Below, in pieces: positions 1 to 4,956 of a DNA stretch of 4,956 bases. Position numbers and translations under genes: made by a program. The stretch is from IMG/VR virus record IMGVR_UViG_2541047126_000008, one strand, 5' to 3'. The notes under the pieces were generated by a model. It did not search any database. It saw nothing but the letters and a program-made list of their open reading frames with translations, and was not told where the DNA came from. This stretch comes from a virus. Taxonomy: Duplodnaviria > Heunggongvirae > Uroviricota > Caudoviricetes. Each line of letters begins with the position of its first letter. The first letter of the stretch is position 1.

Positions 1-572
1 GTCACCTGGTCAGCAAATCCGTGTGCCAGACATTCGGCACCGGACATCCAGGTTTCATCCGCCAGCATGGCGGCAATTTCATCGGTGGTTTTTCCGGTTT
101 TCTGCGCATAGGCTGGCAACAGTACCGATTCGACTTTATCCAGCAAATCGGCATAACTGCGCATATCCTCAGCATCCCCGCCACTGAATCCCCATGGCTT
201 ATGGATCATCATGAAGGCATTTTCCGGCATAATGACCGTATCACCGGCCATCGCAATCACAGATGCCATCGAGGCGGCAACGCCATCCACATACACGGTA
301 ATGGTCGCCCCCTGATTTTTCAGGGCATTAAAAATGGCGATGCCTTCAAAGACATCGCCACCCGGTGAATTGATATTGAGATTAATGTGGGTGATATCGC
401 CCAGTGCATTCAGATCACTGATAAACTGCTTCGCTGTAACACCCCAGAAACCAATCTCGTCATAAATATAAATATCCGCGTCACTCTGGTGACCAGCCTG
501 CATCCTGAACCAGGAATTATTCTTCGGACTGGTCGTCGGTGTGCTGCGGCTCCTGTCGTTTCGTTGCGGCAC
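1..572 (-). CDS. ClpP-like (S14-type) prohead/head maturation protease, N-terminal part; 3' end lies beyond the left edge of the window
   Basis: Minus-strand frame open from about 572 down to position 3 with no stop (not in the ORF track because it has no stop inside the window). Hand translation from the ATG at 503..501: MQAGHQSDADIYIYDEIGFWGVTAKQFISDLNALGDITHINLNINSPGGDVFEGIAIFNALKNQGATITVYVDGVAASMASVIAMAGD...MIHKPW... The INSPGG, GxAASMAS (Ser codon 270-272) and MIHKP (His codon 201-203) motifs match the ClpP serine protease signature. Start is ambiguous: ATG at 503..501 has only a weak Shine-Dalgarno, whereas an in-frame GTG at 572..570 is preceded by a perfect AAGGAGG (revcomp of 578-584) with a 5-nt spacer; I report the longer version. 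Confidence 0.8.
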   Translation of the reverse strand, partial: MPQRNDRSRSTPTTSPKNNSWFRMQAGHQSDADIYIYDEIGFWGVTAKQFISDLNALGDITHINLNINSPGGDVFEGIAIFNALKNQGATITVYVDGVAASMASVIAMAGDTVIMPENAFMMIHKPWGFSGGDAEDMRSYADLLDKVESVLLPAYAQKTGKTTDEIAAMLADETWMSGAECLAHGFADQV

Positions 573-2026
573 TGCTGCCTCCTTTATCACTGGCCGGATC
601 GGTATCAAATACCAGATCCAGCTTGCGGTTTTCATCAATTTCGGCCTTGCGCCGACGTTTGACATCATCCGGATTACGACCACCTGCACGTACCCAGTCT
701 GATTCTGTCGCTGCTCCACCACGAATCTGAATTTTCCAGGCCTCAGCCTCCTTAACAGGGTCAATCCACGGCATCACCGGTCCGGAATACACCGCGGTAT
801 ACAGTGAAGAACGGTCAAGATCGCGGGGTAGCCTGATAACACCGGATGCCACAGCCTGTTTCAGCCAGGCACGATACATCGGGCGGGTGACGGCACCAAT
901 AAACCAGTCCTGCAGGATCAGGTAGCCATCAGTGGATTCAACCAGCTCCTGACGCTGGGCGCTGTAAGTGCCGTTATAGTTGCGCGCTGTACTGGAAAAA
1001 ATTCAGACGACTGCCCGCCGCCACGGCACGCAACTGACCATTACGAAAAGTTTCAAGGTTAGGATTGGGGCGATCCGACTTCACCATTCCGATTTCTTCG
1101 CCGGGTTTCAGATCGTCGTAAATAATGCCTGGCTGAATGGTAAGCTCGCGTTCCTTATCCTTGCTGCCATTACCATCCGGTTCATAGCTCTGCCCATCGC
1201 CTTTCCGGATGTACATCCCCAGAGCAGCGGCGATCCTTGCTGCAGTCAGCTCAGAATCCTCATACTCTTTCAGGGCACTGAGGCGGATCAGCACACCGGA
1301 CAACAAAGACGTCCCGCGCATCTGGTGCAGACGGCGAACAAATTTAAGATGCAGCATTCGCTCTGCATCCACTTCTTTGGTTTCCATCTGCCGTCCGGAT
1401 ACGGGACGGCTTTTATACACCAGATATTTTTCGGGACGCCCCCAGTCATCAACAAACACGCCCTGATTCAGCCTGTTGCTCTCATCACTGGTCATGGGAA
1501 TAAAGTCTGGCTCGAGCGCCTCCAGCCAGAAATGAACACCGGCAGAAGGCGTCAGGCTGTTTATGCGCCCGGAAACCATCTGGGCAAACACCTCACCATC
1601 GCGCAGCCAGGTACGCAGCATCAGACGTTCCAGCATCGGACGGGTAAACTGCCCGGTGACTTCCGGACTGACAGACCATTCACTCCATCGGGTGCGTATC
1701 TCCGCTGCCAGATCACGGGCAATGGCCCCATTGCGTAATACCGGATGTGGCTCGACAATAATCCCGTTTTTCCCCACCACCCGTTCTTCCAGCTTGTCAA
1801 ATACACCAATAACCAGATCGTGGTTGTTATCAAGGTAACGGGCCTGCTCACGTAACGACACGGCCCCGTACTGGCTTAACTGGTCGGCAGTTCGGTTTTC
1901 CCGCCGGGCTTTGTGTGTCCGCGTCGTTTTTACGGCCTCATAAGCCTGGATCACCGCACGGGAACGCAGCCTTGCCGCTTTCCATCCTGGTGAAAAAACG
2001 CCAATCACATCATCAAGAATTGCCAT
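517..2026 (-). pseudogene. Phage portal protein, lambda-type (PF05136-like), split into two frames by an apparent +1 frameshift in an A6/T6 homopolymer at 996-1001
   Basis: N-terminal segment: ATG at 2026..2024 (MAILDDVIGVFSPGWKAARLRSRAVIQAYEA..., a typical lambda-family portal N-terminus) runs in one frame to a TAA at 976..974 (...SRLNFFQYSAQL*), about 350 codons. The track ORF 974..2098 begins at an upstream in-frame Met, but 2026 is the likely start because it overlaps the gpW stop. C-terminal segment: a second frame is open from 1002 down to a TAA at 519..517 (...IFSSTARNYNGTYSAQRQELVESTDGY...QEPQHTDDQSEE*), about 160 codons. The two frames overlap only across 977-1002, which contains the A6 run; removing one A would give a single portal of about 500 aa. 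Confidence 0.8.
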
Positions 2027-2238
2027 CAGAACCTCGCCAGCCGGTACCCGGGATGCCCCCGTCGTCGTGTAATCAGAGCCGCAAGGCGGCGCTCCCACTC
2101 CTGCCGTCCCTGCCGGATCTCAGATAAGTTTTCCATGGTCATCTGCTGACCATTAAAGGTGACGGATTTTCCGTCCAGCACCGCCATTTCAGCTTCCGTA
2201 TAACGCTGAATCATGGCTTCGATATCATTCTGGTTCAT
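2026..2238 (-). CDS. Head-tail joining protein, gpW-like
   Basis: About 70 aa (MNQNDIEAMIQRYTEAEMAVLDGKSVTFNGQQMTMENLSEIRQGRQEWERRLAALITRRRGHPGYRLARF). Size, position between terminase and portal, and the C-terminal RRRG-P-GY motif resemble lambda gpW (which ends ...QRRRGPAGFYV, from memory). The track starts it at 2244, but GGAGG sits directly against that ATG; the second ATG at 2238..2236 has a 6-nt spacer and overlaps the terminase TGA as ATGA. Its stop TGA (2028..2026) overlaps the portal ATG as ATGA. Confidence 0.75.
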   Translation of the reverse strand: MNQNDIEAMIQRYTEAEMAVLDGKSVTFNGQQMTMENLSEIRQGRQEWERRLAALITRRRGHPGYRLARF

Positions 2239-4337
2239 AACCATCCTCCGGAAGTCAGCCAGGGGTTAACATCGTCAGTTACTGTTTTCTTCCGTTTTTG
2301 TTTTTTAACAGGCGTGGATACCGGTTCCGGTGAGGGTGACGGTTCGGTACTGTCCGGGACACTCTCCAGCCAGGTTTCCCGGCTCGCCCACCCCGGTGCA
2401 TCCGGCCAGCGGATCTTTTCGTATCCATGCAGAATGACCAGAGCCTCGGCATACACCATCAGGTCAAAAGCTTCGTTGGCACCGCGACCCGGCTTACTCC
2501 ATTTCCCGTCACTACTCCGCTCTTCATACGTCAGTTCGTCGTAAAACCAGCTCCCCAGCCAGTCAGGGAAATGCACATAGCCGGGACCTGGAGAGTCACG
2601 CCATAACGCGTTATTCACCCGGTCTTTCAGTGCATCCGTCTGAAGAAGCCAGAGCGGCACATCACCTGCGGCCTGCGCCCGTCGGCCCGTTCGTCCGGTG
2701 TTATCAGGGAATGTACGGGTGATCAGTTTTGCGCGCCGGATGCTGTCGCCCTTAAACAGGTAAATACGTTTACCAAGGCCATCACGACGGCAACGACGCC
2801 AGAATTTATAGGCATTATCAGTGACCCCGTCTTCACCGCCGGAGTCCACCGCCATTGCCATCAGTCGCATTTGTTGAGAAGGATCGGAGGCCAGCGGCCA
2901 GCTTTTATGAAAAACATCCGTCAGCAGGACATCCCAGTCTTCCGGATAGCTGGCCGGATCAATTCGCTGGCTCTCACCGTCGCTGTCACCGCGCAATGAC
3001 TGCGTGATGTTGTAACGATCAATAATCCAGCGTTCGCCACGGCTGCCATAGCCCGTTACCTGAACCACAAAACGGCGATGACGTCCCGCCTGCACATCCA
3101 CTGTCGCCACAAGGAAATTAACGCCATCCGGCACACTGCTGGAAGGAACTGGCTCTGCCCGCTGCTCAAGCAGTTCACTTTTTCGTTGCTCCATGCTGGC
3201 GCGGGGAAGATAAGGTAATCCCCAGTCGGTATTGATAACCGTCTTGAGTGTTTCTTCACTTCCGGTTGTCTCGTATTCCTGTTCTGCAGTAAGCAGTTTG
3301 TAAACGAGTTGCGAGAGTGTCTGGTAAGCAGCTGCCGGACCCTCCATCCAGAATGACGCAATACGTGAGCGTCGGGGATCACCATAACGACTACCATCCG
3401 CATTGATGGATTCACCATCCCGCAACCAGACCCCACGTCCGTTCAGCTCACGTTTTTGTTCAGGCATAATCCGTCCTGAACAGGAAGGACACTGAATATA
3501 AGCCGCCTCACTTGCCAGCACGGGATCGGCAATATCACGGAAACCAGCAACCACATCGCCGCAGGGCTGAAAATACTCACCACAGTGTGGACAGGGCCAG
3601 TACCAGCGACGGCGATCGCCACGGTTATAGAGCGACAGTATCCCCGTGGTTGGTGGAGCCTCATGCGGTGAAGTCCGTCGCCATTTCACATCCTTCACAT
3701 CCCTGCCGGGGGAACTCTCCACCAGCGTCATACCACTGGACATAAATGTGGTGGTACGTTTTGAGGCAAGAGAGAAGGCATCCCCCTCGCCATCAATATC
3801 TTCCGGAAAACGGTCATAATCCGTCAGCGCCACGCATTTATAATCTGATGAGGACATGATATTGACTGACGGCCAGCCGATTTTCAGGTAGTTGCCAGCA
3901 AGGAATGTTCTGTCATAAACGTTGTTGTCATTTTTGTTCGGACTCAGGCGACTGACCACTTCCGGGCTGACGCGAAACGTTCTGGCGAGTCGTTTTTTGG
4001 AGTGTTCGCGGGCTTTTTCCTCCGTCATCTGAATGATCAGCATATCCGCAGGATCGCAAATCACGTTGTAAATCACCCAGCCGTCAATCAGGCCGATAGT
4101 CTTGCCGGTTCGTGCCGGGCCAACAAATATCACTGCGTCGTATTCACGCGAGGCCAGGCAGTTCATCGGCTCAATAACATACGGTGCCACCAGCGGATCC
4201 CACGGGACTGAGTTCCCGGCCCCCATGGGCACCCGCATATACTGAGCAACGGCATCAGCAACCCGCATTCGTCTCGGTGCGCGAAGGATATAACCTGAAT
4301 CGGTTCGTGCTGCCTTTGCGGTTTCCTGATTCAGCAT
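2235..4337 (-). CDS. Terminase large subunit, lambda gpA family
   Basis: 700-aa ORF. Walker A P-loop VGPARTGKT near the N-terminus; CPHCGEY ... CPSCSG paired-cysteine motif (lambda gpA has ACPHCGEEQ, from memory); FLVATVDVQ segment resembling the gpA nuclease-domain region (lambda YLTAGIDSQ, from memory). AGGAGGAG Shine-Dalgarno (revcomp of 4340-4347) upstream of the ATG at 4337..4335; that ATG overlaps the upstream frame's TAA as TAATG. Confidence 0.93.
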   Translation of the reverse strand: MLNQETAKAARTDSGYILRAPRRMRVADAVAQYMRVPMGAGNSVPWDPLVAPYVIEPMNCLASREYDAVIFVGPARTGKTIGLIDGWVIYNVICDPADMLIIQMTEEKAREHSKKRLARTFRVSPEVVSRLSPNKNDNNVYDRTFLAGNYLKIGWPSVNIMSSSDYKCVALTDYDRFPEDIDGEGDAFSLASKRTTTFMSSGMTLVESSPGRDVKDVKWRRTSPHEAPPTTGILSLYNRGDRRRWYWPCPHCGEYFQPCGDVVAGFRDIADPVLASEAAYIQCPSCSGRIMPEQKRELNGRGVWLRDGESINADGSRYGDPRRSRIASFWMEGPAAAYQTLSQLVYKLLTAEQEYETTGSEETLKTVINTDWGLPYLPRASMEQRKSELLEQRAEPVPSSSVPDGVNFLVATVDVQAGRHRRFVVQVTGYGSRGERWIIDRYNITQSLRGDSDGESQRIDPASYPEDWDVLLTDVFHKSWPLASDPSQQMRLMAMAVDSGGEDGVTDNAYKFWRRCRRDGLGKRIYLFKGDSIRRAKLITRTFPDNTGRTGRRAQAAGDVPLWLLQTDALKDRVNNALWRDSPGPGYVHFPDWLGSWFYDELTYEERSSDGKWSKPGRGANEAFDLMVYAEALVILHGYEKIRWPDAPGWASRETWLESVPDSTEPSPSPEPVSTPVKKQKRKKTVTDDVNPWLTSGGWL

Positions 4338-4540
4338 TACTCCTCCTGCTGTAATTCCTCCTCATCATCCGCACCTGCTTCGGTCACCCGCAGGGCTATC
4401 TGATCGCGCAGATCATCAATAATGGACTGAACACGGCTCACAGCGGCAGGCTGCAGACCACAGTCACGTTCCAGAATATCCGGTAATGTCTCCAGCACCT
4501 GCACGACCGCTTTTGCCCAGATGGCAAACTCCCGTCTGAC
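4337..4540 (-). pseudogene. Terminase small subunit, 3' fragment (about 67 C-terminal codons); 5' part apparently displaced by the IS insertion
   Basis: Minus-strand frame open through 4540..4340 with no stop and no ATG, ending in a TAA at 4339..4337 that overlaps the terL ATG. Hand translation: VRREFAIWAKAVVQVLETLPDILERDCGLQPAAVSRVQSIIDDLRDQIALRVTEAGADDEEELQQEE*. The position immediately upstream of terL and the acidic C-terminal tail fit a Nu1-like small terminase. The frame runs on into IS sequence and hits a stop at 4573..4571. Family assignment is by position and composition only. Confidence 0.5.
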
Positions 4541-4582
4541 TGAACCGCCCCGGGTTTCCTGGAGAGTGTTTTATCTGTGAAC
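4541..4582. repeat. Terminal inverted repeat region of the IS3-family element (exact IR length not determinable without the other end)
   Basis: Plus-strand sequence tgaaccgccccgggtttcctggagagtgttttatctgtgaac lies between the IS boundary and the OrfB stop; the partner IR is outside the window, so the pairing cannot be verified here. Confidence 0.5.
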
Positions 4583-4956
4583 TCAGGCTGCCAGATCATC
4601 GTTTCCGATGGAAGCATAATAAGCTTTTTCTGCTTCTGCCGGAGGAGTATGGCCCAGCCTTCCCAGCAATCGTCGATTGTTATACCAGTCCACCCACGTT
4701 AGTGTGGCCAGTTCCACTTCTGCACGGTTTTTCCAGCTCTTACGGTGTATTACCTCCGCTTTGTAAAGACCATTGATGCTCTCAGCCATCGCGTTGTCAT
4801 ACGAGTCGCCTGTACTCCCTGTTGATGCCAGTAATCCGGCTTCTTTTAGTCGCTCCGTATAGGCCAGTGACACATACTGAGAGCCTTTATCGCTGTGATG
4901 GATGGTGCCAGACGGACGACGGGCCCACAACGCCTGCTCCAGCGCATCCAGCACGA
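4583..4956 (-). CDS. IS3-family transposase OrfB (DDE integrase core domain), C-terminal portion; N-terminus outside the window
   Basis: Track ORF 4583..4954 (frame stays open to the window edge). Translation ...HHSDKGSQYVSLAYTERLKEAGLLASTGSTGDSYDNAMAESINGLYKAEVIHRKSWKNRAEVELATLTWVDWYNNRRLL... carries the second Asp and the Glu of the DD(35)E triad (DSYDNAMAES) with a conserved Lys 7 residues after the Glu, plus the WVDWYNNRR tail typical of IS3-family OrfB. Confidence 0.9.
   Translation of the reverse strand, partial: VLDALEQALWARRPSGTIHHSDKGSQYVSLAYTERLKEAGLLASTGSTGDSYDNAMAESINGLYKAEVIHRKSWKNRAEVELATLTWVDWYNNRRLLGRLGHTPPAEAEKAYYASIGNDDLAA

What the first reader, a model, noticed from the sequence alone, without database searches (positions are those of the whole stretch)
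977..1002. Portal gene frameshifted at an A6 homopolymer
The portal reading frame stops at 976..974, while a second frame encoding another 160 portal-like codons is open from 1002 downward. The only overlap of the two frames (977-1002) contains the run AAAAAA at 996-1001 (TTTTTT in the mRNA, encoding FF). Deleting one A fuses the frames into a single portal of about 500 aa reading ...SRLNFSSTARNYNGTYSAQRQELVES.... This is either a genuine inactivating slippage mutation (consistent with the IS-disrupted terS) or a homopolymer sequencing error. The two have very different implications for whether the prophage is viable.
Basis: seen in the sequence. Interest (0 to 1): 0.55.

Follow-up and report, generated by a model that had tools for sequence, protein, structure and literature searches.

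The report
Known portal pseudogene in O157 prophage
The portal gene of a decayed lambda-like prophage (Sp3 / CP-933M) of E. coli O157:H7 carries a real frameshift shared across the lineage; it is already annotated and published, so this is an ordinary dead phage gene, not a sequencing error and not new.

Summary
The portal gene lies on the minus strand (ATG at 2026). It stops at 976..974 after 350 codons. A second frame is open from 1002 to 517, and the two frames overlap only at 977-1002, around A6 (996-1001).

The window is the Sp3/CP-933M prophage of E. coli O157:H7. The 1510-nt gene is 100% identical in Sakai, EDL933 and many other complete genomes. The exact frameshifted 47-mer occurs once each in 287 of 5426 complete E. 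coli genomes. These include assemblies described as PacBio in their paper, so a sequencing error is excluded.

In-frame relatives all read GAGTTTTTCC (Ser342, T5) where this allele reads GAATTTTTTCC. They comprise 1542 genomes, phages mEp460 and cdtI, and the orthologous prophage of O55:H7 CB9615, which differs by one other base. Neither single-step intermediate exists, so the change is G->AT (sense strand), not a pure run expansion.

The break maps to the boundary between the stem and the second wing segment of lambda gpB. The truncated product therefore lacks the second wing segment and the crown.

Sakai annotates a pseudogene here. Asadulghani et al. 2009 list the Sp3 portal as defective and Sp3 as non-excising. 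Viability does not hinge on this site. Already known; low interest.

The parts
517..2026 (-). Whole portal pseudogene (1510 nt; intact relatives have 1509 nt encoding 502 aa)
   Evidence: 100% identical over 1510 nt to Sp3 of Sakai, EDL933 and many other O157:H7 genomes. About 99% identical to the 1509-nt portal of phage mEp460. The repaired ORF matches PF05136 at profile positions 3-354 of 354.
974..2026 (-). 5' portal fragment: 350 codons plus TAA at 976..974
   Evidence: Pfam PF05136 at 249 bits, profile positions 3-324 of 354. PGAP extends it to GTG 2098 (374 aa), overlapping the upstream gene. Intact homologues start at the ATG that corresponds to 2026.
996..1002 (-). The mutated site: plus-strand AAAAAAT, sense-strand ATTTTTT, where intact relatives have GTTTTT (AGT Ser342 followed by a T run of 5)
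   Evidence: Alignments with mEp460, O145:H28 and O55:H7 CB9615. All 86 in-frame homologues collected have Ser342. Neither intermediate allele was found.
517..1002 (-). 3' portal fragment in the other frame: 161 codons, bounded upstream by TGA 1005..1003, stop at 519..517
   Evidence: Aligns to lambda gpB and to PDB 8vhx portal C-terminal regions. Sakai annotates its distal part as pseudogene ECs_0827. PGAP calls it a separate 'phage portal protein' CDS.
2026..2244 (-). 72-aa gpW-like head-tail adaptor gene; its stop (2028..2026) shares one base with the portal ATG
   Evidence: The equivalent gene in mEp460 is annotated as head-tail adaptor. No Pfam match.
2235..4337 (-). Large terminase subunit, 700 aa, intact
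   Evidence: Pfam GpA_ATPase and GpA_nuclease. Annotated as terminase large subunit in Sakai, EDL933 and mEp460.
4337..4540 (-). 3' remnant of the small terminase gene (DUF1441), cut by the IS
   Evidence: Pfam PF07278 profile positions 94-146 of 147. O157 genomes without the IS align only to 4540. Strain 7784 annotates two DUF1441 halves flanking an IS1203.
4541..4956 (-). Right end of an IS3-family element (IS629/IS1203 type); runs off the window
   Evidence: Terminal repeat ...CCCGGGGCGGTTCA ends at 4541. rve integrase-core domains. Identical to the IS1203 copy in strain 7784.
1..503 (-). 5' part of the ClpP-like prohead protease / major capsid fusion gene. It is recombinant: 1-376 is identical to another O157 lambdoid prophage, and 325 onward is identical to Sp3.
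   Evidence: Pfam CLP_protease. 55 differences from Sp3, all within 1-324. No differences from the TR01 1.76-Mb prophage over 1-376.

Best explanation
This is a genuine, inherited inactivating mutation in the portal gene of the cryptic lambda-like prophage Sp3 (Sakai) / CP-933M (EDL933) of E. coli O157:H7. Codon 342 and the following T run changed from AGT-TTTTT to AAT-TTTTTT in the sense strand. That is a net +1 base (G replaced by AT). Translation shifts frame after Phe343 and stops eight codons later. By homology with lambda gpB, the 350-residue product keeps the first wing segment, both stem helices and the clip. It lacks the second wing segment and the crown, about 160 residues, so it should not form a working dodecameric portal (inferred, not tested). 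The mutation arose after the split from the O55:H7 lineage represented by CB9615, whose orthologous prophage next to ybhC still has an intact portal. It has since been passed on clonally. It is one of several independent lesions in this prophage. Shown here: the lesion, its distribution, the ancestral state, and its mapping to the fold by alignment. Inferred: loss of function.
For: Sequence and frames. Identity with Sp3/CP-933M: the 1510 nt are 100% identical in Sakai, EDL933, TW14359, EC4115 and others. Sakai annotates prophage Sp3 with pseudogene ECs_0827 at this position.

Not an error: the exact 47-mer carrying the T6 allele occurs once each in 287 of 5426 complete genomes. These include PacBio RSII assemblies of strains 7784, 9000, 10671, 155 and 272. 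It also occurs in 9 IMG/VR prophage contigs.

Ancestral state: 1542 genomes carry in-frame GAGTTTTTCC. The phages mEp460, cdtI, Tritos and Ayreon have a 1509-nt portal. Of 99 full-length copies in fetched loci, 75 are intact 502-aa ORFs, and all 86 in-frame copies have Ser342. A 78%-identical paralogous portal in O157 also reads RLSFSS. No intermediate allele was found.

Recency: the repaired gene has 8 synonymous differences from the O145:H28 portal, and the only amino-acid difference is at the site itself. It differs from O55:H7 CB9615 by 1 SNP plus the lesion. The 12 T6 copies examined differ by at most 1 SNP.

Structural consequence: Pfam coverage drops from 3-354 to 3-324 of 354. The alignment to lambda gpB (8k38) has an offset of +27, which places residue 342 at gpB residue 369. 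The gpB domains are stem 343-367, wing 368-452 and crown 453-511 (PMC10721106).

Literature: PMC2669165 Table 1 scores the Sp3 portal 'D' (defective), and Table 2 shows no circularisation, replication or packaging. PMC5359411 calls Sp3 a 'fixed' prophage that is highly similar across strains.
Against: I could not see the reads behind this particular window. Its source genome is also not in the complete-genome set, because no record matches all 4956 bases. Loss of portal function is inferred from homology; the lambda gpB alignment is weak (23.5 bits, E = 2.5e-4), and there is no expression or assembly assay. The 287 genomes are independent sequencing experiments but a single evolutionary event. 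The allele counts rest on 28-mer seeding: about 68 of the 1897 portal-bearing genomes were matched by neither probe, so their alleles are unknown. Low-level ribosomal or transcriptional slippage on U6/T6 that would yield some full-length protein is not excluded.
Confidence: 0.95

Rival explanations
1. Homopolymer sequencing or assembly error: the real gene is intact and the extra A is an artefact.
For: The lesion includes a 6-base homopolymer, a classic site for indel errors. The window's own reads were not available. The window's left end is a recombinant or possibly chimeric join, so assembly quality cannot be taken for granted.
Against: The identical allele is found in 287 complete genomes from many laboratories. 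These include PacBio assemblies and the Sakai and EDL933 references. The allele also carries a linked base substitution (G->A, Ser->Asn codon) that a homopolymer miscount cannot produce. The pure +1 allele GAGTTTTTTCC is absent from all complete genomes.
Confidence: 0.01
2. Recoding site: +1 or -2 ribosomal slippage of tRNA-Phe on U UUU UUC, or transcriptional slippage on T6, produces enough full-length portal for the gene to remain functional.
For: U6 allows perfect re-pairing of tRNA-Phe after a +1 or -2 shift (read directly from the sequence). Both frames remain open and nearly unmutated.
Against: The two-frame arrangement is derived and confined to one clonal lineage. All functional phages and 1542 genomes encode a single ORF. 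No stimulator is evident: the following zero-frame codons (UUC, CAG) are common ones (my own knowledge of E. coli codon usage), and no Shine-Dalgarno-like element lies just upstream. The downstream 96 nt fold no better than shuffled sequence (z = +0.34). There are no Rfam hits. T6 is shorter than the runs of 9 or more usually needed for efficient RNA polymerase slippage (my own knowledge of the field). The lack of decay in the 3' frame is explained by recency: there is only 1 SNP relative to O55:H7. Sp3 neither packages nor excises.
Confidence: 0.03
3. The truncated 350-aa portal fragment, or the pair of fragments, has been retained for a new role. One example would be poisoning portal rings of incoming related phages (superinfection exclusion).
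For: The fragment keeps the N-terminal wing, stem and clip, which make subunit contacts. It sits in an otherwise intact late operon, and the allele is fixed in the lineage.
Against: Fixation is explained by clonal descent, and there is essentially no variation on which to test selection. Other prophages of this family show different, independent portal frameshifts (G5->G4 at codon 195; AA->A at codon 316), which is the pattern of random decay. The prophage lacks its regulatory region, so late-gene expression is doubtful.
Confidence: 0.01

Closest known systems
Prophage Sp3 of E. coli O157:H7 Sakai (ECs_0826 / pseudogene ECs_0827) = CP-933M of EDL933
   Same: The portal region is 100% identical over all 1510 nt, including the lesion. 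The gene order terS-terL-gpW-like-portal-ClpP/capsid fusion is the same. The portal is already scored defective in PMC2669165.
   Different: In this window terS is interrupted by IS629/IS1203, as in strain 7784 and a few other O157 genomes but not in Sakai or EDL933. Bases 1-324 come from a different lambdoid prophage.
Portal protein of phage mEp460 (YP_007112078) and relatives cdtI, Tritos, Ayreon
   Same: About 99% nucleotide identity. Once the frame is repaired, only 2 of 502 amino acids differ. The neighbouring genes are the same.
   Different: These are deposited phage genomes with one uninterrupted 1509-nt ORF. They read GAGTTTTTCC (Ser342) where the window reads GAATTTTTTCC.
Orthologous prophage next to ybhC in E. 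coli O55:H7 CB9615 (portal WP_000985949.1)
   Same: It lies next to ybhC, as Sp3 does in Sakai. Its portal differs from the window's by one SNP apart from the lesion.
   Different: The portal is intact, and integrase, excisionase, repressor, O and P genes are annotated. However, its ClpP/capsid fusion gene has an internal stop and bet is frameshifted. This is independent decay of the same element.
Bacteriophage lambda portal gpB (PDB 8k38; Pfam PF05136)
   Same: It belongs to the same Pfam family. The C-terminal third aligns, which places the lesion at the boundary between the stem and the second wing segment.
   Different: It is only distantly related (23.5 bits, E = 2.5e-4, over about 136 residues). 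It is 533 aa long versus 502 aa.

Membership tests
Lambda-family phage portal (Pfam PF05136 Phage_portal_2) | Sequence match above the curated Pfam threshold | tested here: met
   The 5' fragment scores 249 bits and the repaired ORF 272 bits, against a cut-off of 32.9.
Lambda-family phage portal (Pfam PF05136 Phage_portal_2) | Position in the head-gene module: terminase large subunit, small head-tail adaptor, portal, prohead protease | tested here: met
   GpA_ATPase/GpA_nuclease, then a 72-aa ORF, then the portal, then CLP_protease. The order is the same in mEp460.
Lambda-family phage portal (Pfam PF05136 Phage_portal_2) | One uninterrupted ORF of about 500 aa covering wing, stem, clip and crown | tested here: not met
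   The frame breaks at codon 343 and stops at codon 351. Pfam coverage ends at profile position 324 of 354. It is therefore a pseudogene of this family, not a functional member.
Lambda-family phage portal (Pfam PF05136 Phage_portal_2) | Forms a dodecameric ring at one capsid vertex | not testable with these tools
   This needs biochemistry or cryo-EM. By homology the truncated product lacks the second wing segment and the crown.
Prophage Sp3 / CP-933M of E. coli O157:H7 | Near-identity of sequence, including the lineage-specific lesion | tested here: met
   Window 325-4540 is identical to O157 Sp3 copies, and the T6 allele is found once per genome in 287 genomes.
Prophage Sp3 / CP-933M of E. 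coli O157:H7 | Integration next to ybhC | not testable with these tools
   The window contains no chromosomal flank. In Sakai the prophage abuts ybhC.
Programmed frameshift (recoding) site | The two-frame arrangement is conserved among homologues | tested here: not met
   1542 genomes and all deposited phages encode a single ORF. The split is confined to one clone.
Programmed frameshift (recoding) site | A slippery sequence plus a stimulatory element (a slowly decoded or stop codon, an upstream SD-like element, or a downstream structure) | tested here: not met
   U6 is slippery in principle, but the next codons are UUC and CAG and no SD-like element lies adjacent. The downstream fold has z = +0.34. 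There are no Rfam matches.
Homopolymer sequencing artefact | Run length varies between assemblies or chemistries, with no linked substitution | tested here: not met
   The allele is identical in 287 genomes, including PacBio assemblies and the two reference genomes. It is always linked to G->A, and GAGTTTTTTCC is never seen.

The most novel reading that the evidence does not exclude
The U6 run permits a low but biologically useful level of +1/-2 ribosomal or transcriptional slippage. Under this reading the Sp3 head module still supplies some full-length portal (or a truncated, assembly-interfering one) to the pool of interacting defective prophages in O157:H7. Nothing here supports this reading. 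It is merely not excluded, because no expression data exist.
Probability: 0.03. Interest if true: 0.35.

Novelty: already known. Interest (0 to 1): 0.07.

Why it matters
It matters little beyond bookkeeping. It also shows that the viability of this prophage does not depend on this site, because the element has lost immunity, replication and integrase functions and, in this strain, terS as well. There are two small practical points. First, NCBI's PGAP annotates the two halves as separate 'phage portal protein' CDSs in most O157 genomes rather than as one pseudogene, which inflates gene counts. Second, the G->AT allele is a clean marker that separates the O157:H7 copies examined here from the intact O55:H7 CB9615 orthologue.

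Tried and rejected
1. Sequencing error: rejected, because the allele is identical in 287 complete genomes and is linked to a substitution.
2. Pure A5->A6 slippage: searches for both single-step intermediates (GAATTTTTCC and GAGTTTTTTCC) found nothing in 5426 genomes. The event was either a single G->AT replacement or two steps on one branch. I could not tell which.
3. Gene conversion from a paralogous portal as the source of the double change: the 78%-identical paralogue in O157 TR01 also encodes RLSFSS, so there is no support.
4. Programmed frameshift: the downstream RNA fold is no better than shuffled sequence, Rfam is empty, and the arrangement is not conserved.
5. Selection test on the fragments after the frameshift: not possible, because 12 T6 copies differ by at most 1 SNP.
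6. Identifying the exact source genome: no complete genome or IMG/VR contig matches all 4956 bases.
7. A literature search for 'CP-933M' plus 'portal' found one paper, which I did not open.
8. I did not run structure prediction or the large protein-database searches. The Pfam and PDB alignments with published gpB domain limits were enough to place the break.

Full report
**1. The observation**

The portal gene lies on the minus strand. From ATG at 2026 the frame runs 350 codons and ends ...GSRLNFFQYSAQL with TAA at 976..974. The other frame has TGA at 1005..1003. It is then open from 1002 to the stop at 519..517, encoding 161 aa that begin IFSSTARNYNGTYSAQRQELVES. The plus strand reads G995, AAAAAA at 996-1001, then T1002. 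Deleting one T from the sense strand gives a 1509-nt, 502-aa ORF.

Pfam confirms the gene's identity. The 350-aa fragment matches Phage_portal_2 (PF05136) at 249 bits but only over profile positions 3-324 of 354. The repaired protein matches positions 3-354 at 272 bits. The neighbouring genes fit a lambda-type head module:
- GpA-type large terminase at 2235-4337
- a 72-aa gpW-like gene at 2026-2244
- a ClpP-like protease gene starting at about 503

**2. Where the window comes from**

The 1510-nt gene is 100% identical to a locus in E. coli O157:H7 Sakai, EDL933, TW14359, EC4115, Xuzhou21 and many others. In Sakai the locus lies inside the annotated feature 'prophage Sp3, lambda-like phage'. 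There the 5' part is ECs_0826 and the 3' part is the pseudogene ECs_0827, noted as 'phage portal protein'. In the PGAP-annotated genomes the two halves appear as two separate 'phage portal protein' CDSs.

**3. Real mutation or sequencing error?**

I designed 46-47-nt probes in which every 28-mer megablast seed must span the variable site. A hit therefore reports the allele itself.
- The window's allele (GAATTTTTTCC) is present exactly once in each of 287 of 5426 complete E. coli genomes, always at 100% identity.
- The in-frame allele GAGTTTTTCC is present in 1542 genomes.
- About 68 of the 1897 portal-bearing genomes were picked up by neither probe. Nearby SNPs are the likely reason.

The 287 genomes are one evolutionary event but many independent sequencing experiments. 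They include strains 7784, 9000, 10671, 155 and 272, which were sequenced on PacBio RSII (PMC5359411). They also include Sakai and EDL933, which to my knowledge were originally Sanger projects. Nine IMG/VR prophage contigs from other isolate genomes carry the allele as well. A homopolymer artefact is therefore excluded.

**4. What changed**

Alignments with phage mEp460, an O145:H28 prophage and the O55:H7 CB9615 prophage all show the same difference. The sense strand reads CTG AGT TTT TCC in the intact genes and CTG AAT TTT TTC C here. The allele therefore differs by a G->A change (Ser342 AGT to Asn AAT) and one extra T, which is G->AT overall.

Neither single-step intermediate occurs in any complete E. 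coli genome: GAATTTTTCC gave no match, and GAGTTTTTTCC gave no match. All 86 in-frame copies I collected have Ser342. A 78%-identical paralogous portal elsewhere in O157:H7 TR01 also reads RLSFSS.

The event was either one complex replacement or two steps on the same short branch, and I cannot distinguish these. The linked substitution is a further argument against a homopolymer miscount.

**5. When it happened**

O55:H7 CB9615 carries the orthologous prophage next to ybhC, as Sp3 does in Sakai. Its portal is an intact 1509-nt ORF that differs from the window's gene by a single SNP besides the lesion. The repaired gene has eight synonymous differences from the O145:H28 portal, and the only amino-acid difference is the site itself. 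Twelve T6 copies differ from each other by at most one SNP.

The gene was therefore under purifying selection until very recently. It was broken after the split from the O55:H7 lineage represented by CB9615 and has been inherited clonally since. This recency also explains why the downstream frame is still open, so there is no need to invoke selection on it.

**6. What the lesion does**

The repaired protein aligns to the solved lambda portal gpB (PDB 8k38), residues 305-440 against 332-474, without gaps around the site. That alignment is weak (23.5 bits, E = 2.5e-4). It places residue 342 at gpB residue 369. The published gpB domain limits (PMC10721106) are:
- wing: 24-249 and 368-452
- stem: 250-279 and 343-367
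- clip: 280-342
- crown: 453-511

The frame therefore breaks exactly where the second stem helix re-enters the wing. The 350-aa product lacks the second wing segment and the whole crown. That it cannot build a functional portal ring is an inference from the conserved portal fold, not something tested here.

**7. Is it a recoding site?**

Restoring the frame would require a +1 or -2 shift. tRNA-Phe could re-pair perfectly on U6, so a low level of slippage cannot be excluded. None of the hallmarks of a programmed site is present:
- The split is not conserved. Sixteen deposited phage genomes match the gene at 98-99% identity as a 1509-nt stretch with no split, and in mEp460 it is annotated as a single portal ORF. 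75 of 99 full-length copies in fetched loci are intact 502-aa ORFs.
- The next zero-frame codons are UUC and CAG, which are common codons.
- No SD-like element lies just upstream.
- The 96 nt downstream fold no better than shuffled sequence (z = +0.34).
- Rfam finds nothing in the window.

Other prophages of this family show different, independent portal lesions: G5->G4 at codon 195 in L060, AA->A at codon 316 in L091, and an amber at codon 492 in 11 loci. That is the pattern of random decay.

**8. Does prophage viability hinge on this site?**

No. Asadulghani et al. 2009 (PMC2669165) already list the Sp3 portal as defective. They also report no repressor or anti-repressor, a disrupted integrase, no replication genes and a disrupted recombination module. 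Experimentally Sp3 showed no circularisation, replication or packaging. The Sakai annotation agrees: int and bet are pseudogenes, and the immunity and replication genes annotated in CB9615 have no counterpart in Sakai.

In this window the small terminase gene is also cut. Only its last 67 codons remain (4337-4540, DUF1441 profile positions 94-146 of 147). They abut the terminal repeat of an IS629/IS1203 element at 4541. The junction is identical to that in strain 7784.

**9. Comparison with what is known, and verdict**

This is the already annotated and published portal pseudogene of Sp3/CP-933M. It is a member of the lambda portal family by sequence and synteny, but it fails the test of an uninterrupted ORF. 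There are two corrections: the change is G->AT rather than a simple run expansion, and the lesion is only one of many in this prophage. Novelty: already known. Interest: low.

Noticed in passing
window 1-376 (breakpoint within 325-376): The left end of the window is a clean recombinant within the ClpP-like protease/capsid fusion gene. Bases 1-376 are identical to a different lambdoid prophage of O157:H7 (TR01 at 1.76 Mb). Bases 325-4956 are identical to Sp3 of strain 7784. Against Sp3 there are 55 differences, all within 1-324. No complete genome or IMG/VR contig carries this junction. It is therefore either an inter-prophage recombination or inversion in the source strain, or a chimeric assembly join across a 52-nt identical stretch.
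   Followed up: partly
window 4337-4956; L004 7337-9141; L005 7336-8795: An IS629/IS1203 element is inserted in terS (DUF1441), with the junction at 4540/4541. The insertion is shared with only a few O157 genomes (7784, Z1835, Z1836, CV261). O145:H28 genomes carry an IS3-family element about 94% identical (24 differences in 416 nt) at exactly the same nucleotide of terS. In those genomes the far side of the IS abuts a DUF551 gene and an integrase instead of the terS 5' half. This could be an insertion hot spot, an exchange between prophages, or an IS-mediated deletion.
   Followed up: partly
window 974-2098 versus 2026: PGAP and the Sakai annotation start the 5' portal fragment at GTG 2098 (374 aa), which overlaps the upstream gpW-like gene by 72 nt. 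Intact homologues start at the ATG equivalent to 2026, and that ATG shares one base with the upstream stop codon (TGATG). The two halves are annotated as separate 'phage portal protein' CDSs in most O157 RefSeq genomes rather than as one pseudogene.
   Followed up: yes
L136 30790-44776 and L138 4131-7611 (O55:H7 CB9615): The orthologous prophage next to ybhC in O55:H7 CB9615 keeps an intact integrase, excisionase, LexA-type repressor, cro/cII-like genes, O, P and the portal. However, its ClpP/capsid fusion gene has an internal stop and bet is frameshifted. The same element is therefore decaying by different lesions in the two sister lineages.
   Followed up: partly
L060 (codon 195), L091 (codon 316), and 11 loci including L068, L029 and L134 (codon 492): Close relatives of this portal in IMG/VR contigs carry other independent lesions. 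There is a G5->G4 deletion, an AA->A deletion, and a recurrent GAG->TAG amber that removes only the last 11 residues. The amber may be tolerated.
   Followed up: no
window 1993-1998: The same gene contains a second T6 run, at sense-strand positions 29-34, and it is in frame and unchanged. Run length alone therefore does not single out 996-1001 as exceptional.
   Followed up: no
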